Made by a program: the position numbers and the translations under genes
Shown here: positions 12,812-43,947 of the stretch, in pieces
How the letters are laid out: every line of letters starts with the position of its first letter
Position numbering within the stretch: position 1 is the stretch's first letter
Notes under the pieces: model-generated
Told to the model about the DNA's origin: nothing
The model's database searches: none
What the model saw: only the letters and a program-made list of their open reading frames with translations
Source of the DNA: Solobacterium sp.
Lineage (GTDB): Bacteria > Bacillota_I > Bacilli_A > Erysipelotrichales > Erysipelotrichaceae
DNA length: 64,000 nucleotides
NCBI GenBank assembly: GCA_022776215.1
Contig: JALFIR010000017.1
Location: 5,836 to 69,835, forward strand
Direction of reading: 5' to 3'

Positions 12812-13004
12812 ATTTTCTCCTGATTTAACAATATCTAATACTAAACTATATAGTAGGTATATAGTCAAGAAGTTTTTTAAAAAAATGTGTTGTCAACACC
12901 TAAAATGATGAAACTATATTTAATGAAAATCCTATTCATAATTTTGTTTACAATTTTATAAGTTAGCCTATCCTTTTATTGTTTCGGTCATTATAATTGT
13001 AATG

Positions 13005-13024
13005 GTTGAACATTCAACTATAAT
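13005..13024 (+). promoter_or_regulatory. 14-bp palindrome GTTGAACATTCAAC abutting a TATAAT box upstream of nrdD
   Basis: Palindrome at 13005-13018, TATAAT at 13019-13024, SD AGGAG at 13034-13038, ATG at 13048. Nearly the same palindrome recurs at 21449-21462. Confidence 0.55.
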
Positions 13025-13047: not shown

Positions 13048-15327
13048 ATGAATCAAATAAAAAAGCGTAAGGGCAATTTGGTAGCTTATGACCCTGAGAA
13101 GATAAGAGTAGCTATCACTAGTGCTAATCATGATATTAAGAAGAAGGCTTCTGATGCAGAAATTGAAGTAATCTTTGAGGCGGCTAAAAATGAGGTTGAG
13201 GAGCTTTTAACTAATCATAATGTTTCTGTAGATGAGATTAATGATATCGTTGAAAGAGCGATGATGAAATATGATTGTTACGAATTAGCTAAACAATTTA
13301 TTGAGTATCGTTACCGTCATAAATTAATTAGAGAATCAAATACAACTGATGAATCTATTTTTGAATTGATTAATGGTAAGTCAGAGTATTGGAATGAAGA
13401 GAATTCAAATAAGAATGCAAGACTTGTTACTACACAACGTGACTATATTGCGGGTATTGTGAATACAGATATTGCTAGAAGATTCTTACTACCAAAGGAT
13501 GTGGTTAAGGCTCATGATGAGGGTATCATCCATGAACATGATATGGATTATCTAGCGGATTTCGCAAGGCATAATTGTGAGCTTATCAATCTTGAGGATA
13601 TGCTTCAAAATGGTACTGTTTTAAATGGTGTAATGATTGAAAAGCCACATCGTTTTATTACAGCAAGTACTATTGCAACTCAAATCATGACTGCGGTTAG
13701 CGCTTCTAGTTATGGTGGTTTAACAGTTACCTTGACTCATTTAGCACCTTTTGTAAGATCTAGTTTCTATAGACACTATAAATTTTTTGTGAAGGAAGTT
13801 CTTGGTCAAGAATTGAACGCGTTGATTAACGAAGATACAAGAATGGATAGTGATGTTTATGCATCTATTCCTGCTGCCTTAGATTATGCGACTAAGCAAA
13901 TTAAGAAGGAAGTTGAAGATGGTGTTCAAACTTTCAATTATCAAATTAATTCAATGTCTTCAACCAATGGTCAATCACCTTTCTGTTCAGTATTTATGTA
14001 TCTAAATGAAACTGATGAATATAAAGATGAATTAGCTATGATTATCGAGGAGTTCTTGAAACAAAGAATTCAAGGCTTAAAGAATGAAAAGGGTATTTAT
14101 GTTACCCAAGCTTTCCCTAAGCTTCTTTATGTCTTGGAAGAAGATAATATTACCGAAGGTTCTAGATATTGGTATTTAACAGAATTAAGTGCTAAGTGTT
14201 CTGCTAAGCGTTTAGTTCCAGACTATGTTTCTGAGAAGATGATGAAGAGTCTTAAGATTAATAAGTTTGGTGTTGGAGATTGTTATGGTCCTATGGGCTG
14301 TAGATCTTTCTTAACTCCAGATAGAATTGAGGGTAATCCTGCTAATGCCTTAAATTATGATCCAAATAAGGGTAAGTATTGGGGTAGATTCAATATGGGT
14401 GTATGTACAGTTAATCTATTTGATGCGGCTTTAAGTTCTAATCGTAATGAGGGTGAGTTCTGGAAATTATTAGATGATAGATGTGAATTATGTCATACAG
14501 GTTTGAAGGTTAGAATTAATAGATTAGCTAGTGCTACTAGTGATGTGGCTCCAATATTGTGGCAACATGGTGCTTTGGCAAGACTACAACCTCATGAGAA
14601 GTTGGAAAAGTTAGTATATGGTGGTTATTCTACTGCTTCACTTGGTTATGCAGCTTTATATGAATGTGTTAAGTATATGACAGGCTTGAATCTTACTGAT
14701 AAAGAGGGCGAGGCTTTTGGTATGCGTGTCATGAATTTCTTGAATGATAAGTGTGCTAAGTGGAAAAAGGAAGAGAATATTGATTATTCTGTTTATGGTA
14801 CGCCTCTTGAGACTACTACTTATAAGTTTGCGAAGATGGCTAAGAAGAAGTTTGGCGATGATGTGTTTGTAAAACTTGATGGTCATGATAGAGATTATGT
14901 GACTAATTCAAGTCATACTCCTGTTTTCCAAAATATTGATGCGTTTGATAAGTTGGATATTGATGGTAAGTTCCAAGAATTATCTCCAGGTGGTAATGTA
15001 ATTTATATTGAGACACCTAATCTTCAAAATAATATTGAGGCAATTTTAGAAGTAATCAAATATATGTATGATCATACTATGTATGGTGAATTAAATACTA
15101 AGTCTGATTATTGCATGAATTGTGGTTATGATGGCGAGATTATGGTTGTTGAGGATGAAAAGACTCATAAGCTAGTTTGGGAATGTCCAAATTGTAAGAA
15201 CCGTGACCAAAATAAGATGCAGGTAACAAGACGTACTTGTGGTTATCTAGGTTCTCATTATTGGAATCAGGGTAGAACTGATGAGATAAGATCTAGAGTA
15301 TTGCATCTAGATAATGTATGCGAATAA
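13048..15327 (+). CDS. nrdD: Anaerobic ribonucleoside-triphosphate reductase (class III, E. coli/T4-like type)
   Basis: N-terminal ATP-cone, PMGCRSFL motif, C-terminal Zn ribbon (CMNCGY...CPNCKN) and glycyl-radical motif RRTCGYLGS. Confidence 0.95.
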   Translation: MNQIKKRKGNLVAYDPEKIRVAITSANHDIKKKASDAEIEVIFEAAKNEVEELLTNHNVSVDEINDIVERAMMKYDCYELAKQFIEYRYRHKLIRESNTTDESIFELINGKSEYWNEENSNKNARLVTTQRDYIAGIVNTDIARRFLLPKDVVKAHDEGIIHEHDMDYLADFARHNCELINLEDMLQNGTVLNGVMIEKPHRFITASTIATQIMTAVSASSYGGLTVTLTHLAPFVRSSFYRHYKFFVKEVLGQELNALINEDTRMDSDVYASIPAALDYATKQIKKEVEDGVQTFNYQINSMSSTNGQSPFCSVFMYLNETDEYKDELAMIIEEFLKQRIQGLKNEKGIYVTQAFPKLLYVLEEDNITEGSRYWYLTELSAKCSAKRLVPDYVSEKMMKSLKINKFGVGDCYGPMGCRSFLTPDRIEGNPANALNYDPNKGKYWGRFNMGVCTVNLFDAALSSNRNEGEFWKLLDDRCELCHTGLKVRINRLASATSDVAPILWQHGALARLQPHEKLEKLVYGGYSTASLGYAALYECVKYMTGLNLTDKEGEAFGMRVMNFLNDKCAKWKKEENIDYSVYGTPLETTTYKFAKMAKKKFGDDVFVKLDGHDRDYVTNSSHTPVFQNIDAFDKLDIDGKFQELSPGGNVIYIETPNLQNNIEAILEVIKYMYDHTMYGELNTKSDYCMNCGYDGEIMVVEDEKTHKLVWECPNCKNRDQNKMQVTRRTCGYLGSHYWNQGRTDEIRSRVLHLDNVCE

Positions 15328-15587: not shown

Positions 15588-16079
15588 ATGAGATATGCAC
15601 AAATAAGAAAAAAAGATATTGCGAATGGACCTGGCATCCGTGTGAGTATATTTGTACAAGGATGTCATTTTCATTGTAAGAATTGTTTTAATAGTGATAC
15701 TTGGGATTTTAATGGTGGCCAAGAATTTAAACAAGAAGTTTTAGATAGATTATTAGAATATGGCGAAGATGTCCATGTCTGTGGTTTATCCGTTTTGGGT
15801 GGTGAACCATTGAATGAGAGAAATGTTGATGGTGTTGTAGAAATTTGTAAGGCTTTTAGAGAAAAGTTTCCAGATAAGTCTATATGGCTTTGGAGTGGCT
15901 ATACTTATGAAAACCTTAATGATAATCAAAGAAGAGTATTAGAATATTTAGATGTCTTGGTTGATGGCCAATTTGAAGATGAACTAAAGGATTTTAGACT
16001 TAAGTATCGTGGTTCTAGTAATCAAAGAGTGATTGATGTAAAGAAAAGTAGTATTAATAATATAGTTTCAATGATATAA
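15588..16079 (+). CDS. nrdG: Anaerobic ribonucleotide reductase activating protein (radical SAM)
   Basis: DIANGPGIRVSIFVQGCHFHCKNCFN (CxxxCxxC) in a 163-aa protein. Confidence 0.9.
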   Translation: MRYAQIRKKDIANGPGIRVSIFVQGCHFHCKNCFNSDTWDFNGGQEFKQEVLDRLLEYGEDVHVCGLSVLGGEPLNERNVDGVVEICKAFREKFPDKSIWLWSGYTYENLNDNQRRVLEYLDVLVDGQFEDELKDFRLKYRGSSNQRVIDVKKSSINNIVSMI

Positions 16080-21393: not shown

Positions 21394-21421
21394 ATTATAA
21401 CCTTGAAACAATATTTCAAGG
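21394..21421 (-). promoter_or_regulatory. acyP promoter: TATAAT 6 nt before the ATG, plus palindrome CCTTGAAA-N5-TTTCAAGG
   Basis: The minus strand reads TATAAT (21399-21394)-AAATAC-ATG. The palindrome spans 21401-21421. Confidence 0.5.
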
Positions 21422-21448
21422 ATTTTTAAATTTGTGTGTATTAAATTA

Positions 21449-21475
21449 GTTGAATATTCAACCATTTGTTATAAT
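21449..21475 (+). promoter_or_regulatory. Palindrome GTTGAATATTCAAC plus extended -10 TGtTATAAT upstream of the marR-nrdG fusion gene
   Basis: Palindrome at 21449-21462, TG at 21467-21468, TATAAT at 21470-21475, ATG at 21485 (9 nt downstream), no SD. Confidence 0.55.
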
Positions 21476-21484
21476 GAATACGCT

Positions 21485-22627
21485 ATGGAAAGACTAATGA
21501 ATGTGGATCCAATGATTTTGAATCGTTGTAACCAAAAATATTATGACAAGGTATTATCTAAATACGATATTTCTTATACTCAAATGTTTATTTTGATGGC
21601 AATCTATGAACATAAGGGGCTTTCGATGAATGAATTGGCTGTTATTGGTGCTTATGACAAAGGGACTATTACTAAGGCTATTCAGAAGTTAGAACAGTTG
21701 GGTTATGTGGAGATGACTTTGAGTAGTGAGGATAAGCGTTTGAAGTTGTTGAATACAACGCCAAAGTGTGATCATATTATGCCTGAACTGTATATGATTA
21801 GACAGGGTTGGCAGGATTATTTGTTTAAGGATATTAGTAGGGAAGATTATTTAACTTATGTTAGTGTTGTTGAAAGACTTAATAATAAGGCTAAGGAATA
21901 TCCTCATTATGAGAATGATTTAAATATTCATATCTATGGTCTTCAAAAACTTACCTTATTAGATTATCCAGGTAAGATGGCAGCTACTTTGTTTACTGGT
22001 GGTTGTAACTTTAGATGCCCATTTTGTCATAATCGTTCACTTGTTTTCTTGAATGAACAAGAGGGTGAAATTGATCAAAAGTTGATCTTTGAGTATTTAG
22101 AGAAAAGAAAGAATGTGCTTGATGGTGTTTGTATAAGTGGTGGTGAACCTTTACTACAAGAGGGTATCAAAGACTTATGTAGACAAATTAAGGACTTGGG
22201 TTTGATGGTTAAGTTAGATACAAATGGCTATTGTTTCGACTTATTGAAAGAATTGGTTGAAGAGGGTTTAGTAGATTATGTAGCTATGGATATTAAGAAT
22301 ACCAAGGATAAATATAGCTTCACTTGCGGTTTAAATGATATGGACTTAAGTGGTATAGAGAAAAGTGTTGAGTATCTAAAGTCTAATGTGGTTGATTATG
22401 AATTTAGGACTACAATTGTCAAAGAATTCCATGAGGATTTAGATCTTGAATCATTAGGTAAATGGTTAAAGGGTGCTAAAAGATATTATCTACAAAATTT
22501 TGAAAGTAGAGAAAGTTGTATCCAAAGTGGTTTGAATAGTTTGGATGAAAGTAGGCTGAAAGAATACCAAGAGGTATTGAGTAAATATATTGATAATGTA
22601 TATATAAGAGGATTACAGGAGGACTAG
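21485..22627 (+). CDS. MarR-family wHTH domain fused to NrdG-type radical SAM activase
   Basis: The N-terminal ~140 aa are MarR-like (YTQMFILMAIYEHKGLSMNELA...TKAIQKLEQLGYVEM...DKRLKLL). The C-terminal part is YPGKMAATLFTGGCNFRCPFCHN plus GVCISGGEP. Confidence 0.85.
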   Translation: MERLMNVDPMILNRCNQKYYDKVLSKYDISYTQMFILMAIYEHKGLSMNELAVIGAYDKGTITKAIQKLEQLGYVEMTLSSEDKRLKLLNTTPKCDHIMPELYMIRQGWQDYLFKDISREDYLTYVSVVERLNNKAKEYPHYENDLNIHIYGLQKLTLLDYPGKMAATLFTGGCNFRCPFCHNRSLVFLNEQEGEIDQKLIFEYLEKRKNVLDGVCISGGEPLLQEGIKDLCRQIKDLGLMVKLDTNGYCFDLLKELVEEGLVDYVAMDIKNTKDKYSFTCGLNDMDLSGIEKSVEYLKSNVVDYEFRTTIVKEFHEDLDLESLGKWLKGAKRYYLQNFESRESCIQSGLNSLDESRLKEYQEVLSKYIDNVYIRGLQED

Positions 22628-22628
22628 T

Positions 22629-24992
22629 ATGTATAAGGTTATTAAAAGAGATGGCAAGGAAGTTGATTTTAATGTAAATAAGATTTCTAATGCGATTGGT
22701 AAGGCTTTTGCGGCAGTTGGTAGAGACTTTCATCCAAGTGTGGTTGAACTGTTGGCACTTAGAACTTGTGCTGATTTTGAGACTAAAGTAAAAGATGGCA
22801 AGGTATATGTAGAAGATATTCAAGATAGTGTTGAGAAGGTATTGTCTGAGAGCAATTATGCTGATGTTGCTAAGGCATATATTCTTTATCGTAAACAAAG
22901 AGAAAAGGCCCGTAATTTATCAGAGACTATGCTTGATTATAAGAAGTTAGTTAATTCTTATGTTGATTCAATTGACTGGCGTGTTAAAGAGAATTCGACA
23001 GTTACTTATTCGGTTGGTGGTTTGATTCTTTCAAATTCTGGTGCAATTACAGCCAACTATTGGTTGAGTGAAATTTATCCAAATGAAATAGCTAATGCCC
23101 ATCGTAATTGTGATATTCATATTCATGATTTGAGCATGCTTACAGGATATTGCGCTGGTTGGTCACTTAGACAATTGATTCAAGAAGGATTAGGTGGTAT
23201 TAAGGGTAAGATTACATCTGCTCCAGCAAAGCACTTGTCAACTTTGTGTAATCAAATGGTAAATTTCTTGGGTATTATGCAAAATGAGTGGGCTGGTGCA
23301 CAGGCTTTCTCTTCTTTTGATACTTATTTGGCGCCTTTTGTAAGAGAAGATAATTTATCTTATAAGCAAGTTAAACAATGCATCCAATCTTTTGTCTATG
23401 GTGTTAATACACCTTCTCGTTGGGGTACGCAAGCACCTTTCTCTAATATTACATTAGACTGGACAGTTCCTGAGGATATGGCTGAGCAATTCTGTTTAGT
23501 TGGTGGCAAAGAACTTTCTTACACTTATAAAGAGTGTCAAAAAGAGATGGATATGATTAATAAGGCCTTTATTGAAGTAATGTTGGAGGGTGATGCCAAT
23601 GGTAGAGGTTTCCAATATCCAATTCCAACTTATTCAATTACTAAGGAATTCGATTTCTCAGAAACAGAAAATAATAAATTGTTGTTTGGGATGACTGCTA
23701 AGTATGGTACTCCTTATTTCTCTAACTATGTAAATTCTGATATGAAGCCAAGTGATATTAGATCAATGTGTTGTCGTTTAAGATTGGACTTAAGAGAATT
23801 AAGAAAGAAATCAGGAGGTTATTTCGGTTCTGGTGAATCAACAGGTTCTGTTGGTGTGGTTACTGTTAATATGCCTCGTATTGCCTATTTAGCTAAAGAC
23901 AGAGAAGACTTCTATAATCGTTTGGATAAGATTATGGATATCTCAGCTAAGTCTTTAAAGATTAAAAGAGAAGTTATTACTAAGCTATTAGAGAATGGCT
24001 TATATCCATATACATTAAGATATTTGGGCACATTCAAGAATCATTTCTCTACTATTGGTTTAGTTGGTATGAATGAGGCTTGTTTAAATGCTAATTGGAT
24101 AAAAGCTGATTTGACTGAAGAGATTGCTCAAGATTTTACTGAAGAAGTATTGAATCATATGCGTGAGCGTTTGGTTATTTATCAAGAGATGTATGGCGAT
24201 TTATACAACTTGGAAGCTACTCCTGCGGAGTCTACGGCTTATCGTTTGGCAAAGCACGATAAGAAGGAATATAAGGATATTATTACAGCAAATGATGATT
24301 CTAAGGTTCCGTATTATACAAACTCTTCACATTTACCAGTAAGTTTTACTGATGATGTATTTAGAGCTTTAGATATTGAGGATAGATTCCAAAATTTATA
24401 TACTTCAGGTACTGTTTTCCATACTTTCTTAGGTGAGAAGCTTCCTGATTGGAGGGCTGCTGCAAGTCTTGTAAAGAAGATTGCGACTAATTATAAGTTA
24501 CCTTACTATACTATCTCTCCAACTTATTCTATTTGTGAGGATCATGGTTATATTACAGGTGAGGTTTATACTTGTCCAATTTGTGGTAAGAAGACTGAAG
24601 TTTGGTCTCGTATTACTGGTTATTATCGTCCTATTTCTAACTGGAATGATGGTAAGGCTCAAGAGTTTAAGGATCGTGTAGAGTATCTTCCTAGTGATTC
24701 TACTGTTCTAAAGGCTAAAGAAGTAAAAGAGGAGATTGTTAAGGAAGAGCCAAAACACGAGTATAAGCCAAGTGAGTTAACAATTTTTGTGCAGGATCAT
24801 TGTCCTAAGTGCAAGGGTGCTGAGCAGAGATTGAGACTTAAGGGTATTAATTATAATGTGGTTAATTGTAGTGTAGATACAAAGTTAGCTAGAGAATTAG
24901 GGGTAGTAGAAACACCTACAATTATTGATACTGATGGCAAGTGGTATGCTGGTGCTAATGCGGCAGTTGACTATTTAAAAGATCATGAGTGA
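22629..24992 (+). CDS. nrdD: Anaerobic ribonucleoside-triphosphate reductase with fused C-terminal glutaredoxin/NrdH-like domain
   Basis: ATP-cone, SMCCRLRLD, Zn ribbon CEDHG...CPICGK and glycyl-radical RITGYYRP. An extra ~70 aa follow: TIFVQDHCPKCKGAEQRL...VETPTII (24777-24989). Confidence 0.9.
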   Translation: MYKVIKRDGKEVDFNVNKISNAIGKAFAAVGRDFHPSVVELLALRTCADFETKVKDGKVYVEDIQDSVEKVLSESNYADVAKAYILYRKQREKARNLSETMLDYKKLVNSYVDSIDWRVKENSTVTYSVGGLILSNSGAITANYWLSEIYPNEIANAHRNCDIHIHDLSMLTGYCAGWSLRQLIQEGLGGIKGKITSAPAKHLSTLCNQMVNFLGIMQNEWAGAQAFSSFDTYLAPFVREDNLSYKQVKQCIQSFVYGVNTPSRWGTQAPFSNITLDWTVPEDMAEQFCLVGGKELSYTYKECQKEMDMINKAFIEVMLEGDANGRGFQYPIPTYSITKEFDFSETENNKLLFGMTAKYGTPYFSNYVNSDMKPSDIRSMCCRLRLDLRELRKKSGGYFGSGESTGSVGVVTVNMPRIAYLAKDREDFYNRLDKIMDISAKSLKIKREVITKLLENGLYPYTLRYLGTFKNHFSTIGLVGMNEACLNANWIKADLTEEIAQDFTEEVLNHMRERLVIYQEMYGDLYNLEATPAESTAYRLAKHDKKEYKDIITANDDSKVPYYTNSSHLPVSFTDDVFRALDIEDRFQNLYTSGTVFHTFLGEKLPDWRAAASLVKKIATNYKLPYYTISPTYSICEDHGYITGEVYTCPICGKKTEVWSRITGYYRPISNWNDGKAQEFKDRVEYLPSDSTVLKAKEVKEEIVKEEPKHEYKPSELTIFVQDHCPKCKGAEQRLRLKGINYNVVNCSVDTKLARELGVVETPTIIDTDGKWYAGANAAVDYLKDHE

Positions 24993-25887
24993 TATTTATG
25001 ATTTGGTGATAGTAGGAGGAGGTCCTGCGGGACTTACTTCTGCCATCTATGGTCTAAGAAATGGCCATAGTGTAGCGGTTATTGAAAGAGATGTCTTTGG
25101 TGGTCAAATTACAAGTTCACCAAGTGTATTAAATATTCCAGGTTTTAATAAAATCAGTGGTGATGAGTATGGTGATCTATTGTTAGAACAGGTTAGTAAA
25201 TTGGGTGGTGAACTTGTTTTTGATGAATGTGTTAAAGTGTCACCAGGTGATGTTATTACTGTTAACTTAAAAGATACAGGTGAAATTCTTTGTAAAAGTT
25301 TAATATTGGCAACCGGTACTGTTCATCGTCGTTTAAATGTTGAACATGAGGAAGAATTGATTGGCAAGCATGTACATTTTTGTGCTGTATGTGATGCTGG
25401 TTTATATAAAGATAAGACAGTAGTTTTGGTAGGTGGGGGTAATTCGGCTTTAGTTGAGGCTGATATCTTAGCTAATATCTGTAAGAAAGTGATTATCTTA
25501 CAAGATTTAAGCGAATTTACTGGTGAAGCATCTTTGATTAAGCAATTAGAGAGCCATGATAATATCACTACTTATTTTAATTGTTCAAATATTAAGTATA
25601 TTGTGGAAGATTCTTTCAAGGGTGTTAGTTTTAATGGCAAGGAATTATTATGTGATGGTGTTTTCTTGGCTATTGGCTTAGTTCCTGATAATAAGTATTT
25701 TAAGGATTTGTTAGACTTGGATGATAGAGGATATTTCATCGCTGATGAGAATGGCTATACAAAATATGATAATATTTTTGTGGCAGGCGATTGTCGTCAA
25801 AAGATGTTAAGACAGGTAGTTACTGCCTGTGGCGATGGTGCTAATTGTGCCATTAATGCCAGTAGATATTTAAGAGGTGTGAAATGA
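24985..25887 (+). CDS. Thioredoxin-reductase-like flavoprotein (CAVC redox centre, no HRRxxxR NADPH motif)
   Basis: GGGPAG, HFCAVCDAG, GGGNSALVEA and AGDC motifs. Overlaps nrdD by 8 nt (ATGAGTGA). Confidence 0.85.
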   Translation: MSDIYDLVIVGGGPAGLTSAIYGLRNGHSVAVIERDVFGGQITSSPSVLNIPGFNKISGDEYGDLLLEQVSKLGGELVFDECVKVSPGDVITVNLKDTGEILCKSLILATGTVHRRLNVEHEEELIGKHVHFCAVCDAGLYKDKTVVLVGGGNSALVEADILANICKKVIILQDLSEFTGEASLIKQLESHDNITTYFNCSNIKYIVEDSFKGVSFNGKELLCDGVFLAIGLVPDNKYFKDLLDLDDRGYFIADENGYTKYDNIFVAGDCRQKMLRQVVTACGDGANCAINASRYLRGVK

Positions 25888-27122
25888 ATTTAGTTGAATT
25901 TTTAAATAATAGTCCTAGTAGCTATAATGCGATTGATAGTATTAAGAAAATTTTAGATGAGAATCATTATGTAGAACTTGATGAAAGAGATGCATATGCT
26001 TTAGATAAGGGTGGCAAGTATTACATCATTAGAAATGGTTCTAGTGTTATGGCCTTTAATGTTGGTAATAATTTAGAGAATCCTTCTTTACAATTAACCG
26101 CTTCTCATTCTGATTGTCCATCTTTTGTGTTGAAGCCAAATTGTTGTAGCTACGAGGGCGGTTACTTTAAGTTGAATACCGAGGTATATGGTGGTGTTAC
26201 TTTCTATTCTTGGTTAGATAGACCGCTTAGTATTGCAGGTAGAATTATTTATAGAGAAGATGGAAGTGTTAAGTCATGTTCTTATAAGTATGATAAGCCA
26301 TTCTGTTTGATTCCATCTGTTGCGATTCATATGAATAGGGAAGTAAATACTAACTTAAACTTAAATCCACAAGTTGATATGCTTCCTATGGTGTCATTAG
26401 AAAAGGGTGATATTTTAAGTTTCTTAAAGGAAGATAGTGGTAAGGATGTGTTAAGTTATGACTTATTTTTGTATCCTGTGAATAGTGCTTATTTATGGGG
26501 CAAGAATGATGAATTTATTACAGGTAATCATTTAGATGATCTTCAATGTGCTTATAACTGTTTAATGGGTTTTATTGATAGTTTCAATGATAATAACATT
26601 AATGTTTATTGTTGTTTCGATAATGAAGAGATTGGTTCAAGTACAAGACAGGGTGCTGATTCTGATTTCTTGTTTACTAATTTAAATAGAATTTGTAACT
26701 CATTGAACATTGATTATTATCGTTTGTTGGCAAGAGGTTTTATGTTGTCTTGTGATAACGCCCATGCACTTCATCCAAATCATAATGAGAAGCATGATGC
26801 CTTGAATCGTCCTTCAATGAATAAGGGTATTGTCATCAAGCATGAGACTAGGGCTTATACAAGTGATGGCTTAAGTATTGGCTATTTAAAGGATTTATTG
26901 GAGCGTCATGATATTCCTTATCAATATTTTGCGAATAGAAGTGATAGTAGGGGTGGCAGTACTTTGGGTAATATCTCTAATAATCATAGTTCGATGTTGT
27001 CGGTTGATGTTGGCCTAGCTCAATTGGCGATGCATTCATGTGTGGAGACAGCTGGTAATTTGGATAATGATTATATGGTAGAGACGGTTAAGGCCTTCTA
27101 TAGCGAAAGTTTAATTAAGTAA
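25884..27122 (+). CDS. M18 family aminopeptidase
   Basis: N-terminus FLNNSPSSYNAI...LDKGGKYYIIRNGSSVMAF is typical of M18. Other matches: HSDCPSF and DNEEIGS. Confidence 0.85.
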   Translation: MNLVEFLNNSPSSYNAIDSIKKILDENHYVELDERDAYALDKGGKYYIIRNGSSVMAFNVGNNLENPSLQLTASHSDCPSFVLKPNCCSYEGGYFKLNTEVYGGVTFYSWLDRPLSIAGRIIYREDGSVKSCSYKYDKPFCLIPSVAIHMNREVNTNLNLNPQVDMLPMVSLEKGDILSFLKEDSGKDVLSYDLFLYPVNSAYLWGKNDEFITGNHLDDLQCAYNCLMGFIDSFNDNNINVYCCFDNEEIGSSTRQGADSDFLFTNLNRICNSLNIDYYRLLARGFMLSCDNAHALHPNHNEKHDALNRPSMNKGIVIKHETRAYTSDGLSIGYLKDLLERHDIPYQYFANRSDSRGGSTLGNISNNHSSMLSVDVGLAQLAMHSCVETAGNLDNDYMVETVKAFYSESLIK

Positions 27123-27125
27123 AAA

Positions 27126-27151
27126 GAAAGAAGAGTTTAGGCTCTTCTTTC
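27126..27151. terminator. Hairpin between convergent genes (acts as a terminator mainly for the minus-strand patB-like gene)
   Basis: GAAAGAAGAG (27126-27135) pairs with CTCTTCTTTC (27142-27151). There is a T-run on the minus strand side. Confidence 0.55.
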
Positions 27152-42289: not shown

Positions 42290-42580
42290 TTATTGAATTC
42301 TTTGTTTAGGAATAAATTCTATTTTAAGAACCATGCCCATACCATCAGCTAATCTCTTTAGCAGATTAAGAGATGGGTTTCTGGTTCCGTTTTCGATTTT
42401 GCTGATATCGGCTTGATTAATGCCTGTTCTTTCAGCTAGTTCTTTTTGTGTTAAATTTTGTGAAGCTCTTGCATCAACAATTGCCCTGATAACATCCATT
42501 TCGGGTTGAATAGCTTCGTATTCCTTTCTAAACTCTTCATCTTTTAATTGCTTTTCAAGCATATCATTAAAGCTTCTCAT
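42290..42580 (-). CDS. XRE-family HTH antitoxin (HigA-like)
   Basis: LTQKELAERTGINQADISKIENGTRNPSLNLLKRLA. Overlaps the upstream toxin gene by 14 nt. Confidence 0.8.
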   Translation of the reverse strand: MRSFNDMLEKQLKDEEFRKEYEAIQPEMDVIRAIVDARASQNLTQKELAERTGINQADISKIENGTRNPSLNLLKRLADGMGMVLKIEFIPKQRIQ

Positions 42581-42941
42581 GTTTTTTCGTCCTTTCTATA
42601 AAATTTTTTCTTCTTTGTTTTGCTAACTTTAGTTCGCTTGGCGGAGTTTTCTGTGTCTTTTTTACAAAACCATTTGTTAGAATAATTTGACCTTCATAAT
42701 AGAAGAAATATAATACTCTTGTAATATCATTTCCAACTTTACATCTAAGTTCGAAAATACCATCATCAAGATGTTTACTATATGGTTCTCTTAGTTTGTT
42801 TCCTTTTTCTTGAAGCAATTCAATCATTCCAAACATTTTAGCTCTCATCTTAATATCCAATGAATCTAAGAATTTTTCTACTGGTACTTCTCCGTTTTCT
42901 TTCTCATAACCTAACACCTTAAAATTTAATGTTCTCTTCAT
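42567..42941 (-). CDS. RelE/ParE-superfamily toxin (phage Gp49/HigB-like)
   Basis: VPVEKFLDSL...IFELRCKVGNDITRVLYFFYYEGQIILTNGFVKKTQKTP is typical of Gp49-type toxins. The start was trimmed to MKRTLNF. Confidence 0.75.
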   Translation of the reverse strand: MKRTLNFKVLGYEKENGEVPVEKFLDSLDIKMRAKMFGMIELLQEKGNKLREPYSKHLDDGIFELRCKVGNDITRVLYFFYYEGQIILTNGFVKKTQKTPPSELKLAKQRRKNFIERTKKHEKL

Positions 42942-42950
42942 CTTGCTTAT

Positions 42951-42979
42951 ATTATATGGTATATATACCATATTGTCAA
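42951..42979 (-). promoter_or_regulatory. Consensus promoter TTGACA-17-TATAAT with a 14-bp palindrome in the spacer, 9 nt upstream of the toxin ATG
   Basis: On the minus strand: TTGACA (42979-42974), spacer containing TGGTATATATACCA (42957-42970), TATAAT (42956-42951), ATG at 42941. Confidence 0.7.
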
Positions 42980-43008: not shown

Positions 43009-43947
43009 CTTGTATACTCTTAATACATTCTTATAACAAATCTTTTCTATTTCTTCTTCTGAGTAATCGTGTTCTCTTAAAGCATCTATTAACATATACA
43101 TTTGGGAACAGTCACTCATTTCTTTTCTTTTCTTGATGCCATCAAAGTCACTGCCTAGGCCAATGTTGTCGATGCAACCTAGTTCTTTGATGTGGTCAAT
43201 GTGTTTGATGATGTTTTCAACACTACCATTACTGTCGTTACTGATGAAGTCTTCACAAAAGTTCATGCCCATTACACCATTGTTTTTGTGTAGTTTTAGG
43301 ATCATTTCATCGCTTAGGTTGCGAGCAACATCACAAATGGCTCTTGCGTTAGAGTGTGATGCTACTATTGGTTTTGTTGAAAGTTCAAGTACATCTTCAA
43401 AGCCTTTGTCTCCTAAATGAGATACATCGATGATGATGCCAAGTTCGTTACATTTCTTGATATATTCTTTGCCAAAATCAGTTAGACCATCAATTGTGTT
43501 TAATGTTCTTAACATTTGATAACGATCAGGATTTGGGGTAAAGTTTGGACTTCCGATACTGTTTTTAAAGTTCCAAGTAAGGGCAATCATTCTAACACCT
43601 AATCGATAATATAGTTCTAGGATGTCTAGATCATTGTTGATGACATCTCCTTCTTCAAGTGTTAACATGGCTGACATTAGTTTGTTTTCTTCAATGTCTT
43701 TGTATGAAAATACTTGTTTAATTAAGTCTTTATTAGCTTCTATTTCTTTATAGAACTTATTAATGTTCTTTAATACGTAGGGTACTCTATCTTTTACTTT
43801 GTCATAGTTTGTGAAGATGGCGAAGTTTTGTAGAAGATAGTTACTTTGTTTCATTTTGATTAGGTCAATGTCTAAATCGTTGTTTCTTAGATGAGTATTT
43901 TCATCTAGTGATAAGAGTGTGTCACAGTGCATGTCTACTATATACAT
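42994..43947 (-). CDS. Membrane (M19 family) dipeptidase
   Basis: MYIVDMHCDTL and VSHLGD...ASHSNA motifs. The start was trimmed to the ATG after AAAAGGAGTA. Confidence 0.85.
   Translation of the reverse strand: MYIVDMHCDTLLSLDENTHLRNNDLDIDLIKMKQSNYLLQNFAIFTNYDKVKDRVPYVLKNINKFYKEIEANKDLIKQVFSYKDIEENKLMSAMLTLEEGDVINNDLDILELYYRLGVRMIALTWNFKNSIGSPNFTPNPDRYQMLRTLNTIDGLTDFGKEYIKKCNELGIIIDVSHLGDKGFEDVLELSTKPIVASHSNARAICDVARNLSDEMILKLHKNNGVMGMNFCEDFISNDSNGSVENIIKHIDHIKELGCIDNIGLGSDFDGIKKRKEMSDCSQMYMLIDALREHDYSEEEIEKICYKNVLRVYKEVLK

What the first reader, a model, noticed from the sequence alone, without database searches (positions are those of the whole stretch)
21485..25887. Self-contained second class III RNR module: MarR-NrdG fusion, NrdD with fused CPKC redoxin domain, and a translationally coupled TrxR-like gene
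The window already holds a conventional nrdD (13048-15327, PMGCRSFL and RRTCGYLGS motifs) and nrdG (15588-16079). Six kb downstream is a second, tightly packed set with a 1-nt gap and an 8-nt overlap. Gene 1 fuses a complete MarR wHTH domain (~140 aa) to an NrdG-type radical SAM activase (GGCNFRCPFCHN). Gene 2 is an NrdD (ATP-cone, SMCCRLRLD, Zn ribbon, RITGYYRP). It carries about 70 extra C-terminal residues that look like a glutaredoxin/NrdH fold with a CPKC active site (24777-24989). Gene 3 is a TrxR-like flavoprotein. It is established that some NrdD enzymes (the Neisseria bacilliformis type) use thioredoxin/TrxR instead of formate as reductant. Here the redoxin appears covalently attached and its reductase co-translated, giving a formate-independent RNR in one operon. 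I do not recognise a transcription-factor/activase fusion as a described architecture.
Basis: partly seen in the sequence, partly recalled or inferred. Interest (0 to 1): 0.75.

Follow-up and report, generated by a model that had tools for sequence, protein, structure and literature searches.

The report
Self-regulating anaerobic RNR operon with tethered redoxin
A gut bacterium's second oxygen-sensitive DNA-precursor enzyme carries its own small electron-carrier domain and sits next to a matching reductase, while its activating enzyme is fused to a DNA-binding domain whose conserved binding site lies in front of both such operons, so the activase probably also acts as the genetic switch.

Summary
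Window 21485-25887 encodes MarR::NrdG (380 aa), NrdD with a C-terminal CPKC redoxin (787 aa) and a TrxR-like flavoprotein (300 aa), with a 1-nt gap and an 8-nt overlap.

Both fusions are real and conserved. MarR::NrdG occurs in 36 species-level genomes, all Erysipelotrichales-like, including cultured Holdemania, Dielma and Stecheria. The NrdD::redoxin fusion is much wider. It is the norm in this NrdD clade across Erysipelotrichales and Clostridia, usually with CPNC. It has been listed once, for a single protein, in a supplementary table.

The tail models as a glutaredoxin/NrdH fold (pLDDT 93.6). The NrdD is an MCCR + Glu type, so it keeps the methionine. Use of formate is therefore not excluded.

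The TrxR-like protein keeps its CxxC and GGGNSA motifs but has LQD in place of the NADPH motif HRR.

The new result is an 18-bp palindrome, TAGTTG-N6-CAACTA. It lies in the promoter of 31 of 36 fusion genes and upstream of none of 43 unfused nrdG genes. In the window a second perfect core sits in the promoter of the conventional nrdD (13005-13018). Clostridial relatives carry NrdR boxes there instead.

Best reading: a thiol-driven class III RNR whose activase doubles as the repressor of both RNR operons. All functions are inferred.

The parts
13003..13020 (.). Second copy of the palindromic operator (TGGTTGAACATTCAACTA; perfect core GTTGAACATTCAAC at 13005-13018). It lies in the promoter of the conventional nrdD, 30 nt before its ATG and just after a TATAAT at 12992-12997.
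   Evidence: Only two perfect GTTGAANNTTCAAC sites exist in 64 kb, and both lie in front of nrd operons. 0.26 matches with up to 1 mismatch are expected by chance.
13048..15327 (+). nrdD1, a conventional formate-type class III RNR (PMGCR finger loop, Tyr at the Glu position). It is context for the finding and a probable member of the same regulon.
15588..16079 (+). nrdG1, the conventional short activase (TIGR02491).
21447..21464 (.). 18-bp palindromic operator TAGTTGAATATTCAACCA (core 21449-21462). It overlaps the -35/spacer region of the marR::nrdG promoter.
   Evidence: It is conserved as TAGTTG-N6-CAACTA in 31 of 36 orthologous fusion loci.
21467..21475 (+). Extended -10 element TGtTATAAT. 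The predicted transcript start is about 21482, so the mRNA has almost no leader before the ATG at 21485.
   Evidence: Read directly from the sequence. The consensus scan did not list it because there is no good -35.
21485..21919 (+). MarR-family winged-helix DNA-binding domain of gene 1 (aa 1-145).
   Evidence: Pfam MarR/MarR_2. PDB MarR 3bpv matches aa 11-135 at E 1.4e-14. AF2 and Foldseek. The recognition helix DKGT.TK and wing D.R are invariant in 36 orthologues.
21920..22627 (+). NrdG2-type radical-SAM activase domain of gene 1 (aa 146-380; C174/C178/C181 cluster motif), including the stop codon.
   Evidence: TIGR02495 at 208.7 bits, above its cut-off. Foldseek PFL-AE 3cb8, TM 0.73 normalised to the target.
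22629..24686 (+). NrdD proper: ATP-cone (aa 3-92) plus class III RNR core (aa 121-686). Key residues are C175, M380-C381-C382-R383, E529 and glycyl-radical G664.
24687..24761 (+). Linker between the glycyl-radical domain and the redoxin. It is rich in charged residues and varies in length and sequence among orthologues.
24762..24992 (+). C-terminal glutaredoxin/NrdH-like redoxin domain (aa 712-787). CPKC is at 24801-24812, the cis-Pro motif is ETPT, and there is an extra conserved Cys (VNC). The stop codon is included.
24985..25887 (+). Low-Mr thioredoxin-reductase-like flavoprotein (GGGPAG, CAVC, GGGNSA; LQD in place of HRR). It overlaps nrdD by 8 nt.
25884..27122 (+). M18 aminopeptidase. It overlaps gene 3 by 4 nt and is probably co-transcribed. 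It is linked to the module only in close relatives, so it is probably not part of the system.
27126..27151 (.). Terminator-like hairpin closing the convergent transcription units.

Best explanation
This is a four-gene transcription unit of a human-gut Solobacterium-like Erysipelotrichaceae bacterium. It encodes a second, thiol-dependent class III ribonucleotide reductase system together with its own regulator.

1. Electron path (inferred). The TrxR-like flavoprotein takes electrons from a pyridine nucleotide, more likely NADH than NADPH because HRR is replaced by LQD. It reduces the CPKC disulfide of the redoxin domain. That domain hangs on a flexible linker behind the glycyl-radical domain of NrdD. 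It then swings to the active site, in cis or across the dimer, and reduces the C175-C381/382 disulfide formed at each turnover, with E529 as proton relay. This works like the N. bacilliformis NrdD/Trx/TrxR system, but the redoxin is covalently attached.

2. Activation and regulation (inferred). The NrdG2 domain of gene 1 installs the glycyl radical on G664. Its N-terminal MarR domain dimerises and binds the 18-bp palindrome TAGTTG-N6-CAACTA. This site overlaps the core promoter of its own operon and, in this genome, the promoter of the conventional nrdD1-nrdG1 operon. The geometry is that of a repressor.

3. Consequence (inferred). The activase is therefore a bifunctional 'trigger enzyme' that ties transcription of both class III RNR operons to its own state. 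In this lineage it takes the place that NrdR boxes hold in front of the orthologous clostridial nrdD.

Shown here: the domain identities, conservation of both fusions, conservation of the catalytic and CxxC residues, the fold of the tail, and the co-occurrence and promoter position of the palindrome. Inferred: every biochemical activity, the electron donor, DNA binding itself, and the signal sensed.
For: Fusions:
- Both are conserved in at least 120 clusters each.
- In 80 species genomes, MarR::NrdG is found in L008-L043 and L057. These include Holdemania filiformis DSM 12042, Dielma fastidiosa and Stecheria intestinalis, down to 39% identity.
- The 1.84-billion representative library holds 20 full-length and 6 partial fusion clusters among the best 150 hits.
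- About 49 of 52 complete NrdD ORFs carry a tail with CxxC, in fusion and non-fusion lineages alike.

Redoxin tail:
- The CxxC pair and TP motif are invariant, while the linker varies in length.
- AF2 gives pLDDT 93.6 and a b-a-b-a-b-b-a topology.
- Foldseek matches Grx, NrdH and BC3987 at TM 0.7-0.8 and rmsd 1.7-1.9. The best PDB sequence hit is NrdH 1r7h.

NrdD active site: the finger loop aligns to T. maritima SCCR, E529 to Tm E495 and C175 to Tm C125. nrdD1 has MGCR and a Tyr instead of the Glu.

TrxR-like gene:
- It lies directly downstream of nrdD in all seven complete CPKC-type loci and in many clostridial loci.
- CAVC and GGGNSA are conserved. HRR is replaced by LQD or VQN in 18 of the 23 TrxR-like sequences in which the motif could be read. 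The best PDB hit, 7jyp, has the same replacement.

Operator:
- 31 of 36 fusion loci carry it with at most 2 mismatches (15 perfect), 31-81 nt before the start codon.
- None of 43 unfused nrdG upstream regions does, and only 16 of 720 random windows do.
- The window has two perfect cores, one in front of each nrd operon.
- The MarR recognition helix and wing residues are invariant in 36 orthologues. The MarR fold is complete.

NrdR boxes occur in the nrdG-nrdD spacer of 8-9 of 42 clostridial loci. None occurs in 34 fusion loci or in the window.
Against: - No experiment exists for any part.
- M380 is retained in the finger loop, so formate could still be the reductant, or a second one (PMC9669993).
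- The TrxR-like protein scores below the TIGR01292 cut-off, and its donor is unknown.
- Many fusion-bearing genomes (Holdemania, Dielma, Bulleidia) have no TrxR-like gene next to nrdD, so a dedicated reductase is not obligatory.
- All fusion loci are Erysipelotrichales-like and all controls are Clostridia. The link between palindrome and MarR could therefore partly reflect shared ancestry, with another lineage-specific factor binding the site.
- Two fusion loci (L041, L057) lack the palindrome.
- I could not test the nrdD1 operator properly in other species. Related nrdD1 loci carry GTTGCAAATGCAAC at -73 to -81, but their organisms are unidentified.
- The signal sensed is unknown. The one candidate I could test, an OhrR-like Cys15, is not conserved.
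Confidence: 0.65

Rival explanations
1. The redoxin tail and the TrxR-like protein do not deliver the catalytic electrons. NrdD2 uses formate, helped by its retained finger-loop methionine. The tethered redoxin only keeps the active-site or finger-loop cysteines reduced, acting as repair or protection after oxidant exposure, or it acts as a redox switch on activity.
For: M380 is conserved. PMC9669993 notes that MCCR enzymes hold the components for either reductant. Many genomes with the tail lack an adjacent reductase. One lineage (L057) has lost both tail cysteines yet keeps an intact NrdD ORF. Sellimonas (L047, L069) has no tail at all.
Against: The third cysteine and the Glu that define thiol-dependent NrdD2 are both present, and both are absent from nrdD1 in the same genome. 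The tail's CxxC is kept in about 49 of 52 orthologues. A TrxR-like gene is repeatedly placed directly after it, and here is translationally coupled to it. A cell that already has a formate-type NrdD1 has little reason to keep a second formate enzyme.
Confidence: 0.2
2. The MarR domain is not the factor that binds the palindrome. It serves as a dimerisation or scaffold module that presents two activase domains to the NrdD dimer. A separate Erysipelotrichales-specific regulator recognises TAGTTG-N6-CAACTA.
For: Fusion and palindrome are confounded with phylogeny. L041 and L057 keep the fusion without the palindrome. MarR proteins dimerise through a1/a5/a6, which are present.
Against: The DNA-contacting parts are invariant across 36 orthologues down to 39% identity: recognition helix D58-K59-G60..T63-K64 and wing D83-x-R85. 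A pure scaffold would not need this. An 18-bp palindrome overlapping the core promoter of the regulator's own gene is the standard MarR autoregulatory layout. No other regulator gene is conserved at the locus.
Confidence: 0.12
3. Gene 3 is simply the cell's general thioredoxin reductase. It happens to lie next to nrdD and serves the whole thiol-redox network, not a dedicated partner of the tail.
For: It is a standard low-Mr TrxR in fold and active site. No other TrxR or thioredoxin is seen in the 64-kb window. Some clostridial nrdD neighbours have the canonical HRR form.
Against: It overlaps nrdD by 8 nt. The same position is kept across distant lineages. The non-HRR motif Q[DN]L..[FL]T[GA][ED] is shared by most nrdD-linked copies, which suggests a co-inherited subfamily. 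The two readings are not exclusive.
Confidence: 0.15
4. The fusions are sequencing or assembly artefacts: a lost stop codon or a frameshift.
For: None found.
Against: The same reading frames appear in hundreds of independent assemblies and in isolate genomes.
Confidence: 0.01

Closest known systems
Neisseria bacilliformis / Thermotoga maritima NrdD (the 'NrdD2' subtype of Wei et al. 2014, as summarised in PMC4493059 and PMC9669993), reduced by thioredoxin and TrxR
   Same: It is a class III RNR with a double-cysteine finger loop, an active-site Glu and the bA cysteine. The residues align to Tm SCCR, E495 and C125. A thiol protein rather than formate is the expected reductant.
   Different: The finger loop here is MCCR, so the Met is retained. 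The redoxin is a Grx/NrdH-size domain fused to the C-terminus, not a free thioredoxin. The reductase is encoded in the operon and lacks the NADPH HRR motif.
Facklamia ignava Grx::ATP-cone::NrdB (PMC6187632)
   Same: A glutaredoxin-fold domain is fused to an RNR subunit and was shown there to act as the RNR reductant. The same paper lists one Glutaredoxin:NrdD protein (Lachnospiraceae bacterium TWA4, subclass NrdDd) in Table S1.
   Different: That enzyme is class I, the fusion is N-terminal on the radical subunit, and it depends on glutathione. Here the enzyme is class III, the fusion is C-terminal on the catalytic subunit, no glutathione-binding motif is evident, and a TrxR-like partner is present. 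The NrdD fusion was never studied, and its wide distribution was missed because most tails score below the Pfam Grx threshold.
Methanosarcina barkeri NrdD3 with an operon-encoded NrdH-like redoxin and ferredoxin:disulfide reductase (cited in PMC9176816 Table 1; the details are from my own knowledge)
   Same: The nrdD operon carries its own small redoxin and its own disulfide reductase.
   Different: In M. barkeri they are separate proteins, the reductase is an FTR-type iron-sulfur enzyme fed by ferredoxin, and NrdD3 lacks the Glu.
NrdH-redoxin with TrxR in class Ib RNR; Bacillus cereus BC3987
   Same: It matches in size, fold and CxxC position. BC3987 and the NrdH structures are among the best structural matches, and NrdH is the best sequence match. 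NrdH-type redoxins are reduced by TrxR rather than glutathione (established knowledge).
   Different: The NrdH signature motifs CVQC and WSGFRP are absent (CPKC and WYAGAN here). The NrdH NCBIfam model scores 16 bits against a cut-off of 86.
NrdR, the RNR-specific repressor
   Same: It is a dedicated transcription factor with palindromic sites in nrd promoters. Clostridial orthologues of this very nrdD carry NrdR boxes where the Erysipelotrichales carry none.
   Different: It has a different DNA-binding fold (Zn-ribbon plus ATP-cone against MarR wHTH), a different box, and is not fused to an enzyme.
Bifunctional enzyme/repressors ('trigger enzymes') such as BirA and PutA (my own knowledge)
   Same: An enzyme carries a DNA-binding domain and represses the operon of its own pathway.
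   Different: As far as I could find, no radical-SAM activase has been reported in this role.
Eukaryotic NrdD::NrdG fusions (PMC3019208)
   Same: This is another domain fusion within the class III system.
   Different: It fuses the catalytic subunit to the activase. No regulator or redoxin is involved.

Membership tests
Class III RNR catalytic subunit (NrdD) | Family models matched above the curated cut-offs | tested here: met
   Pfam NRDD 643.7 bits; NF006126 1121.5 bits (cut-off 548); TIGR02487 542 bits (cut-off 326).
Class III RNR catalytic subunit (NrdD) | C-terminal glycyl-radical motif RxxGY preceded by a Zn-ribbon | tested here: met
   SICEDH...CPICGKKTEVWSRITGYYRP aligns to the T. maritima and P. 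copri NrdD structures. The radical glycine is G664.
Class III RNR catalytic subunit (NrdD) | NTP reduction after activation by NrdG | not testable with these tools
   Needs anaerobic biochemistry.
Thiol-dependent NrdD2 subtype (Wei et al. definition, as given in PMC4493059) | Extra cysteine on the finger loop (CC) plus an active-site Glu | tested here: met
   M380-C381-C382-R383 aligns to Tm SCCR. E529 aligns to Tm E495. nrdD1 of the same window has MGCR and Tyr.
'Thioredoxin-only' subclades (PMC9669993) | Glu present and finger-loop Met absent | tested here: not met
   Met380 is present and conserved in relatives. The enzyme belongs to the MCCR majority, whose reductant is unresolved.
NrdG2-type glycyl-radical activase | CX3CX2C cluster motif and an equivalog model above its cut-off | tested here: met
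   C174/C178/C181 are invariant in 36 orthologues. TIGR02495 scores 208.7 bits against 131.15. The fold matches PFL-AE.
MarR-family transcription factor | Complete a1-a2-a3-a4(recognition)-wing-a5-a6 fold | tested here: met
   Pfam MarR 44.6 bits and MarR_2 52.2 bits, both above gathering. PDB 3bpv matches aa 11-135. AF2 secondary structure. Foldseek TM 0.77-0.87 normalised to the target.
MarR-family transcription factor | Binds a (pseudo)palindromic operator overlapping its own promoter | tested here: inconclusive
   A conserved 18-bp palindrome lies in 31 of 36 own promoters and in 0 of 43 controls. Binding itself was not tested, and the association is confounded with lineage.
MarR-family transcription factor (OhrR/MgrA 1-Cys redox sensors) | Conserved N-terminal sensing cysteine | tested here: not met
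   Cys15 is invariant in close relatives but is replaced by N, S or Y in most of L019-L043 and in L057.
Glutaredoxin / NrdH-like redoxin | Thioredoxin fold with CxxC at the N-terminus of helix 1 and a cis-Pro loop | tested here: met
   AF2 pLDDT 93.6, topology b-a-b-a-b-b-a. Foldseek matches Grx, NrdH and BC3987. C725/C728 and P of ETPT are invariant.
Glutaredoxin (Pfam PF00462) | Score at or above the gathering threshold | tested here: inconclusive
   22.3 bits against 22.9. Some orthologues pass in the precomputed Pfam column.
NrdH-redoxin proper | CVQC and WSGFRP signature motifs; TIGR02194 | tested here: not met
   CPKC and WYAGAN are found instead. TIGR02194 scores 16.2 bits against a cut-off of 85.75.
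Low-Mr thioredoxin reductase (TrxB) | FAD GxGxxG motif, redox-active CxxC and the pyridine-nucleotide GxGxxA motif | tested here: met
   GGGPAG, CAVC and GGGNSA are present.
Low-Mr thioredoxin reductase (TrxB) | NADPH 2'-phosphate motif HRRxxxR and an equivalog score | tested here: not met
   LQDLSEFTG aligns to HRRDTLRAQ of 7aaw. TIGR01292 scores 254.9 bits against a cut-off of 343.45.
Ferredoxin-dependent flavin thioredoxin reductase (FFTR, PDB 6gna-6gnd) | Closest relationship to FFTR and loss of the nucleotide-binding glycine motif | tested here: not met
   6gna scores E 7.7e-26, against 1e-56 for the TrxR entry 7jyp. GGGNSA is retained.
NrdR regulon | NrdR boxes in the nrd promoters | tested here: not met
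   No match with at most 3 mismatches in the window or in 34 fusion loci. Boxes are present in 8-9 of 42 clostridial loci.

The most novel reading that the evidence does not exclude
MarR::NrdG is a sensor-regulator in which the radical-SAM activase domain itself is the input. When its oxygen-labile [4Fe-4S] cluster, its SAM site or its NrdD-docking surface is unoccupied or damaged, the fused MarR dimer changes its hold on the TAGTTG-N6-CAACTA operators. Transcription of both class III RNR operons then follows the cell's actual capacity to make glycyl radicals. This would be an NrdR replacement built from the activase, and the first transcription factor whose sensory module is a glycyl-radical activating enzyme. 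In parallel, the tethered redoxin would show that the large MCCR majority of class III RNRs in gut Firmicutes runs on protein thiols fed by NADH rather than on formate.
Probability: 0.25. Interest if true: 0.85.

Novelty: new variant of a known kind. Interest (0 to 1): 0.66.

Why it matters
Class III RNR is the DNA-precursor enzyme of strict anaerobes, including the dominant gut Firmicutes.

- **Reductant question.** Which reductant the large double-cysteine-plus-methionine (MCCR) group uses is an open question (PMC9669993). Almost every NrdD of this clade in Erysipelotrichales and Clostridia carries a covalently tethered CxxC redoxin, often followed by a TrxR-like gene. This is strong genomic evidence for thiol-based reduction. 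It also offers a compact natural system (one fusion protein plus one flavoprotein) in which to test it.
- **Annotation gap.** The fusion is almost invisible in current annotation. Proteins are named only 'ribonucleoside triphosphate reductase', and the tail usually scores below the Pfam threshold.
- **Regulation.** An activase fused to a MarR domain, with a conserved operator in front of both RNR operons and in the place of NrdR boxes, would be a new way of regulating RNR. It would also be a new class of bifunctional enzyme/repressor.
- **Testability.** Carriers such as Holdemania filiformis DSM 12042, Dielma fastidiosa and Stecheria intestinalis are cultured, so the experiments are feasible.

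Tried and rejected
1. **OhrR-like thiol sensing by Cys15 of the MarR domain.** Cys15 is invariant among close relatives but replaced by N, S or Y in the more distant fusions. I rejected it as a family-wide mechanism.
2. **Gene 3 as a ferredoxin-dependent FFTR.** It is much closer to ordinary TrxR entries (7jyp, E 1e-56) than to FFTR (6gna, E 8e-26), and it keeps GGGNSA. Not supported.
3. **Cross-species test of the nrdD1 operator.** The third protein search returned only same-species NrdD1 at 99-100% identity. The metagenome scan gave 80 nrdD1 loci at 51-62% identity. A few carry GTTGCAAATGCAAC at -73 to -81, and one abundant species carries TGTTGCCTGTGCAACA at -198. Their organisms cannot be identified, and none carries a MarR::NrdG within 10 kb. 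The result is suggestive only.
4. **Third GTTGAA..TTCAA-like site at 43376.** It has 1 mismatch and lies inside a dipeptidase gene, so I treat it as chance.
5. **Riboswitch or other RNA leader.** Rfam found nothing in the window.
6. **M18 aminopeptidase as part of the system.** It is linked only in the closest relatives and one other lineage. I treat it as a passenger.
7. **Literature.** Searches for a described MarR-NrdG or radical-SAM-activase/transcription-factor fusion found nothing relevant. The key paper, Wei et al. 2014 (PMC4246965), is not held, so I could not check whether it mentions redoxin fusions.
8. **PDB entry 7jyp.** A search found no paper, so I know only that it was deposited as 'thioredoxin reductase'.

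Full report
**1. What is in the sequence**

ORF listing confirms three tightly packed genes on the + strand.
- Gene 1 ends at 22627. The ORF could open at a GTG at 21434, but orthologue N-termini and the promoter favour the ATG at 21485.
- Gene 2 is 22629-24992. It starts 1 nt after the stop of gene 1 and has AGGAGG 7 nt upstream.
- Gene 3 is 24985-25887. It overlaps gene 2 by 8 nt, ATGAGTGA.
- A fourth gene, an M18 aminopeptidase at 25884-27122, overlaps gene 3 by 4 nt. The first terminator-like hairpin follows at 27126-27151.

**2. Domain identities**

- Gene 1: MarR/MarR_2 (aa 27-85, above Pfam gathering) plus the NrdG2 equivalog TIGR02495 (208.7 bits against 131; aa 150-339).
- Gene 2: ATP-cone (aa 3-92) plus NRDD (aa 121-686; NF006126 1121 bits) plus a weak Grx-type match at aa 718-757 (22.3 bits against gathering 22.9).
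- Gene 3: Pyr_redox_2, with TrxR TIGR01292 at 255 bits, below its cut-off of 343.

The MarR part matches whole MarR proteins in the PDB by sequence (3bpv, aa 11-135, E 1.4e-14). An AF2 model of gene 1 (pLDDT 81) has the full a1-a6 plus wing layout, followed from residue 152 by the activase. Foldseek gives PFL-activase 3cb8 (TM 0.73 on the target) and MarR/SlyA structures (TM 0.77-0.87).

An AF2 model of the NrdD tail (aa 709-787, 21-sequence alignment) has pLDDT 93.6 and b-a-b-a-b-b-a topology. Its best structural matches are glutaredoxins, B. cereus BC3987 and NrdH-redoxins, at TM 0.7-0.8 and rmsd 1.7-1.9. The best PDB sequence hit is NrdH 1r7h.

**3. Source organism and reality of the fusions**

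The window is 99% identical to a contig of 'uncultured Solobacterium sp. UMGS869', a human-gut Erysipelotrichaceae. The exact NrdD protein is on record in 251 blocks of the assembly collection.

Both fusions are conserved in the 120 best clusters of each protein search:
- MarR+rSAM at about 381 aa, 57-96% identity.
- NrdD at 785-814 aa, 76-99% identity.

NCBI names them only 'activating protein' and 'ribonucleoside triphosphate reductase'.

A scan of one genome per GTDB species, followed by my tblastn and ORF scripts, shows two different distributions.

*MarR::NrdG* is confined to Erysipelotrichales-like genomes (L008-L043, L057).
- These include Solobacterium, Bulleidia, Lactimicrobium, Holdemania filiformis DSM 12042, Dielma fastidiosa, Stecheria intestinalis and MAGs labelled Acholeplasmatales, down to 39% identity.
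- In Clostridia (Lachnospiraceae, Oscillospiraceae, Acutalibacteraceae and others) the orthologous NrdG2 stands alone.
- In the 1.84-billion representative library, 20 full-length and 6 partial fusion clusters appear among the best 150. The rest are ~230-aa NrdG2 proteins.

*NrdD::redoxin* is far wider.
- About 49 of 52 complete NrdD ORFs in both groups carry a tail with CxxC.
- The usual form is ...LLFTTKTCPNCK...QAPTLVV.
- The CPKC/CPRC form is restricted to the Solobacterium-like subclade. It also has ETPTIID, GANAA and an extra conserved Cys.
- Exceptions are Sellimonas (703 aa, no tail) and L057, whose tail has lost both cysteines.
- The linker varies from about 20 to 60 residues and contains lineage-specific repeats. 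The redoxin core and its CxxC and TP motifs are invariant.

**4. Type of NrdD**

Alignment to T. maritima NrdD places M380-C381-C382-R383 on Tm SCCR, E529 on Tm E495 and C175 on Tm C125. The window's nrdD1 has PMGCR and a Tyr at the Glu position.

By the definition summarised in PMC4493059, gene 2 is an NrdD2: it has the third Cys and the Glu. By the analysis in PMC9669993, it belongs to the MCCR majority, 83% of double-Cys enzymes. [quoted passage not shown] It is therefore not the Met-less N. bacilliformis type. Formate independence is plausible but not demonstrated.

**5. The reductase**

Gene 3 has GGGPAG, CAVC and GGGNSA. Where TrxR has HRRDxxR it has LQDLSEF (alignment to 7aaw). Its best PDB relative, 7jyp (E 1e-56), has VQN at the same place.

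Among nrdD-adjacent TrxR-like genes in other genomes, 18 of the 23 whose motif could be read share Q[DN]L..[FL]T[GA][ED]. Four have canonical HRR and one (L048) has an irregular TRKDRF. Loss of the 2'-phosphate-binding arginines, together with an acidic residue at the end of the strand, points to NADH rather than NADPH. This is an inference from general Rossmann-fold rules.

FFTR-type ferredoxin enzymes are much more distant (6gna, E 8e-26). The gene follows nrdD directly in all seven complete CPKC-type loci and in many clostridial loci. It is absent at that position in Holdemania, Dielma, Bulleidia and others.

**6. The operator (new result)**

Immediately upstream of gene 1 lies a perfect palindrome, GTTGAATATTCAAC (21449-21462). 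It sits between the -35 position and an extended -10, TGtTATAAT (21467-21475).

I extracted the upstream regions of all fusion genes. The same element, consensus TAGTTG-N6-CAACTA, occurs 31-81 nt before the start codon in 31 of 36 loci with at most 2 mismatches of 12 specified bases. Fifteen are perfect. Controls:
- 0 of 43 unfused clostridial nrdG upstream regions reach 2 mismatches or fewer.
- 16 of 720 random 150-nt windows of the same loci do so.

In some lineages the element lies between -35 and -10. In others it lies just downstream of the -10. Both are repressor geometries.

In the window a second perfect core, GTTGAACATTCAAC (13005-13018), lies 30 nt before the ATG of the conventional nrdD1, directly after a TATAAT. 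These are the only two perfect GTTGAANNTTCAAC sites in 64 kb. With 1 mismatch allowed, 0.26 are expected and 3 are found, and the third is intragenic.

The MarR recognition helix (D58-K59-G60..T63-K64) and wing (D83-x-R85) are invariant in all 36 orthologues.

In clostridial loci the nrdG-nrdD spacer is 100-270 bp. In 8-9 of 42 cases it holds NrdR boxes, including a perfect ACACTATATATAGTGT. In fusion loci the spacer has collapsed to a few nucleotides. No NrdR box is found in 34 upstream regions or anywhere in the window. No NrdR, thioredoxin, second TrxR or second MarR-like ORF is present in the window, though 64 kb says nothing about the rest of the genome.

**7. How it most likely works**

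*Shown:* the architecture, conservation of both fusions, the catalytic and redox residues, the fold of the tail, and the co-occurrence and promoter position of the operator.

*Inferred, electron path:* NADH (probably), then FAD and CAVC of gene 3, then CPKC of the tethered redoxin, then the C175-C381/382 disulfide of NrdD. The tail acts as a swinging arm, comparable to the C-terminal cysteine tails of class I/II RNR, the fused Grx of Facklamia NrdB (PMC6187632) or the N-terminal domain of AhpF.

*Inferred, regulation:* the MarR domain dimerises, binds the palindromes and represses both nrd operons. The activase domain supplies the signal. I cannot tell which signal. Cluster integrity (oxygen), SAM and engagement with unactivated NrdD are all possible. 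A conserved sensing cysteine is excluded.

I put the combined model at about 0.65. DNA binding by the MarR domain alone is about 0.8. The tail as the catalytic reductant is about 0.65. The activase domain as the sensory input is about 0.25-0.4.

**8. Comparison with what is known, and novelty**

The closest systems are:
- the N. bacilliformis NrdD/Trx/TrxR system;
- M. barkeri NrdD3 with an operon-encoded NrdH-like redoxin and a ferredoxin:disulfide reductase;
- Facklamia Grx::NrdB;
- class Ib NrdH/TrxR;
- NrdR, for regulation.

A 'Glutaredoxin:NrdD' fusion was listed for a single RefSeq protein (Lachnospiraceae bacterium TWA4, subclass NrdDd) in Table S1 of PMC6187632 and never followed up. 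Only one was found there because that screen required the Pfam Grx gathering score, which most tails miss. The redoxin fusion is thus a known but essentially unexplored architecture, and its true breadth is new.

I found no report of a MarR (or any transcription factor) fused to a glycyl-radical activase, nor of its operator. The library is open-access only, and Wei et al. 2014 could not be read.

Overall this is a new variant of a known kind. The chemistry is ordinary class III RNR chemistry. What differs is a tethered electron carrier and, more surprisingly, an activase that appears to be the operon's repressor.

**9. Limits**

- Everything functional is inference.
- The association between operator and MarR is confounded with lineage.
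- The nrdD1 operator could be verified only in this species. Related nrdD1 loci show similar palindromes, but their organisms are unidentified.
- The AF2 models rest on shallow alignments of close relatives.

Noticed in passing
window 21401-21421: There is a perfect 8-bp-stem hairpin, CCTTGAAAcaataTTTCAAGG, followed by ATTTTTAAAT. It lies between the divergent acylphosphatase gene and the marR::nrdG promoter. It looks like a terminator on the + strand, although no + strand gene ends nearby. Its half-site TTGAAA resembles the operator half-site. Its function is unknown; it may be an insulator or a second low-affinity site.
   Followed up: partly
window 21470-21487: The extended -10 element ends only about 9 nt before the ATG of gene 1. 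In this species and its sister (L008, L009) the mRNA would therefore be nearly leaderless. More distant orthologues have a normal leader with a GGAGG-type ribosome-binding site.
   Followed up: partly
L010, L012, L013, L015, L017 (about 30-40 nt upstream of the main operator) and L018 (first palindrome only): Rumen and goat Erysipelotrichaceae loci carry a second operator-like palindrome (TAGTTGAAATTTCAATTA). Further upstream there is another conserved palindrome, ATTTCCGGGAAAT, of unknown function.
   Followed up: no
L057 ('Eubacterium sp. AM49-13BH' contig), NrdD tail: This NrdD keeps a redoxin-length tail but both active-site cysteines are replaced (…FISKSDSNSKQ…). The same locus also lacks the operator palindrome, and its NrdD core is the most diverged at 66% identity. 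The module may be decaying or re-purposed.
   Followed up: partly
L047, L069 (Sellimonas): The NrdD of the same clade is only 702-703 aa and has no redoxin tail. This is a natural 'tail-less' comparator.
   Followed up: no
P0488, P0478 (representative library): Other N-terminal fusions to NrdG2-type activases exist: NUDIX::NrdG (428 aa) and acyltransferase::NrdG (423 aa). A NUDIX hydrolase fused to an RNR activase may be of interest for dNTP-pool control.
   Followed up: partly
P0156-P0168 (NrdD homologues): The linker between NrdD and the redoxin contains tandem peptide repeats (…EPHKVESNIAEPHKVESHIVESPKVE…) whose copy number differs among close relatives. This fits a spacer of tunable length.
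   Followed up: no
L044-L084, nrdG-nrdD spacers: Clostridial loci of the same nrdG2-nrdD clade carry NrdR boxes between nrdG and nrdD, not upstream of nrdG. L044 has a perfect ACACTATATATAGTGT. nrdD may therefore have its own NrdR-controlled promoter there.
   Followed up: partly
window 25884-27122: An M18 aminopeptidase gene overlaps the TrxR-like gene by 4 nt (ATGA). It is also found after the module in a 61%-identity relative (L005, L006) but not in most others.
   Followed up: partly
window 42290-42971 (- strand): Two small overlapping ORFs (134 aa and a 96-aa protein with an XRE-type HTH-like sequence) look like a toxin-antitoxin pair. They are unrelated to the finding.
   Followed up: no
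L121-L159 (one abundant human-gut species, nrdD1 homologue at 53% identity): The nrdD1 upstream region holds an NrdR-box-like sequence, CACAAGATATAGTATAGTATATCACA. Immediately after it comes a palindrome, TGTTGCCTGTGCAACA, at -198. This resembles the GTTG…CAAC operator family. The organism is unidentified.
   Followed up: partly
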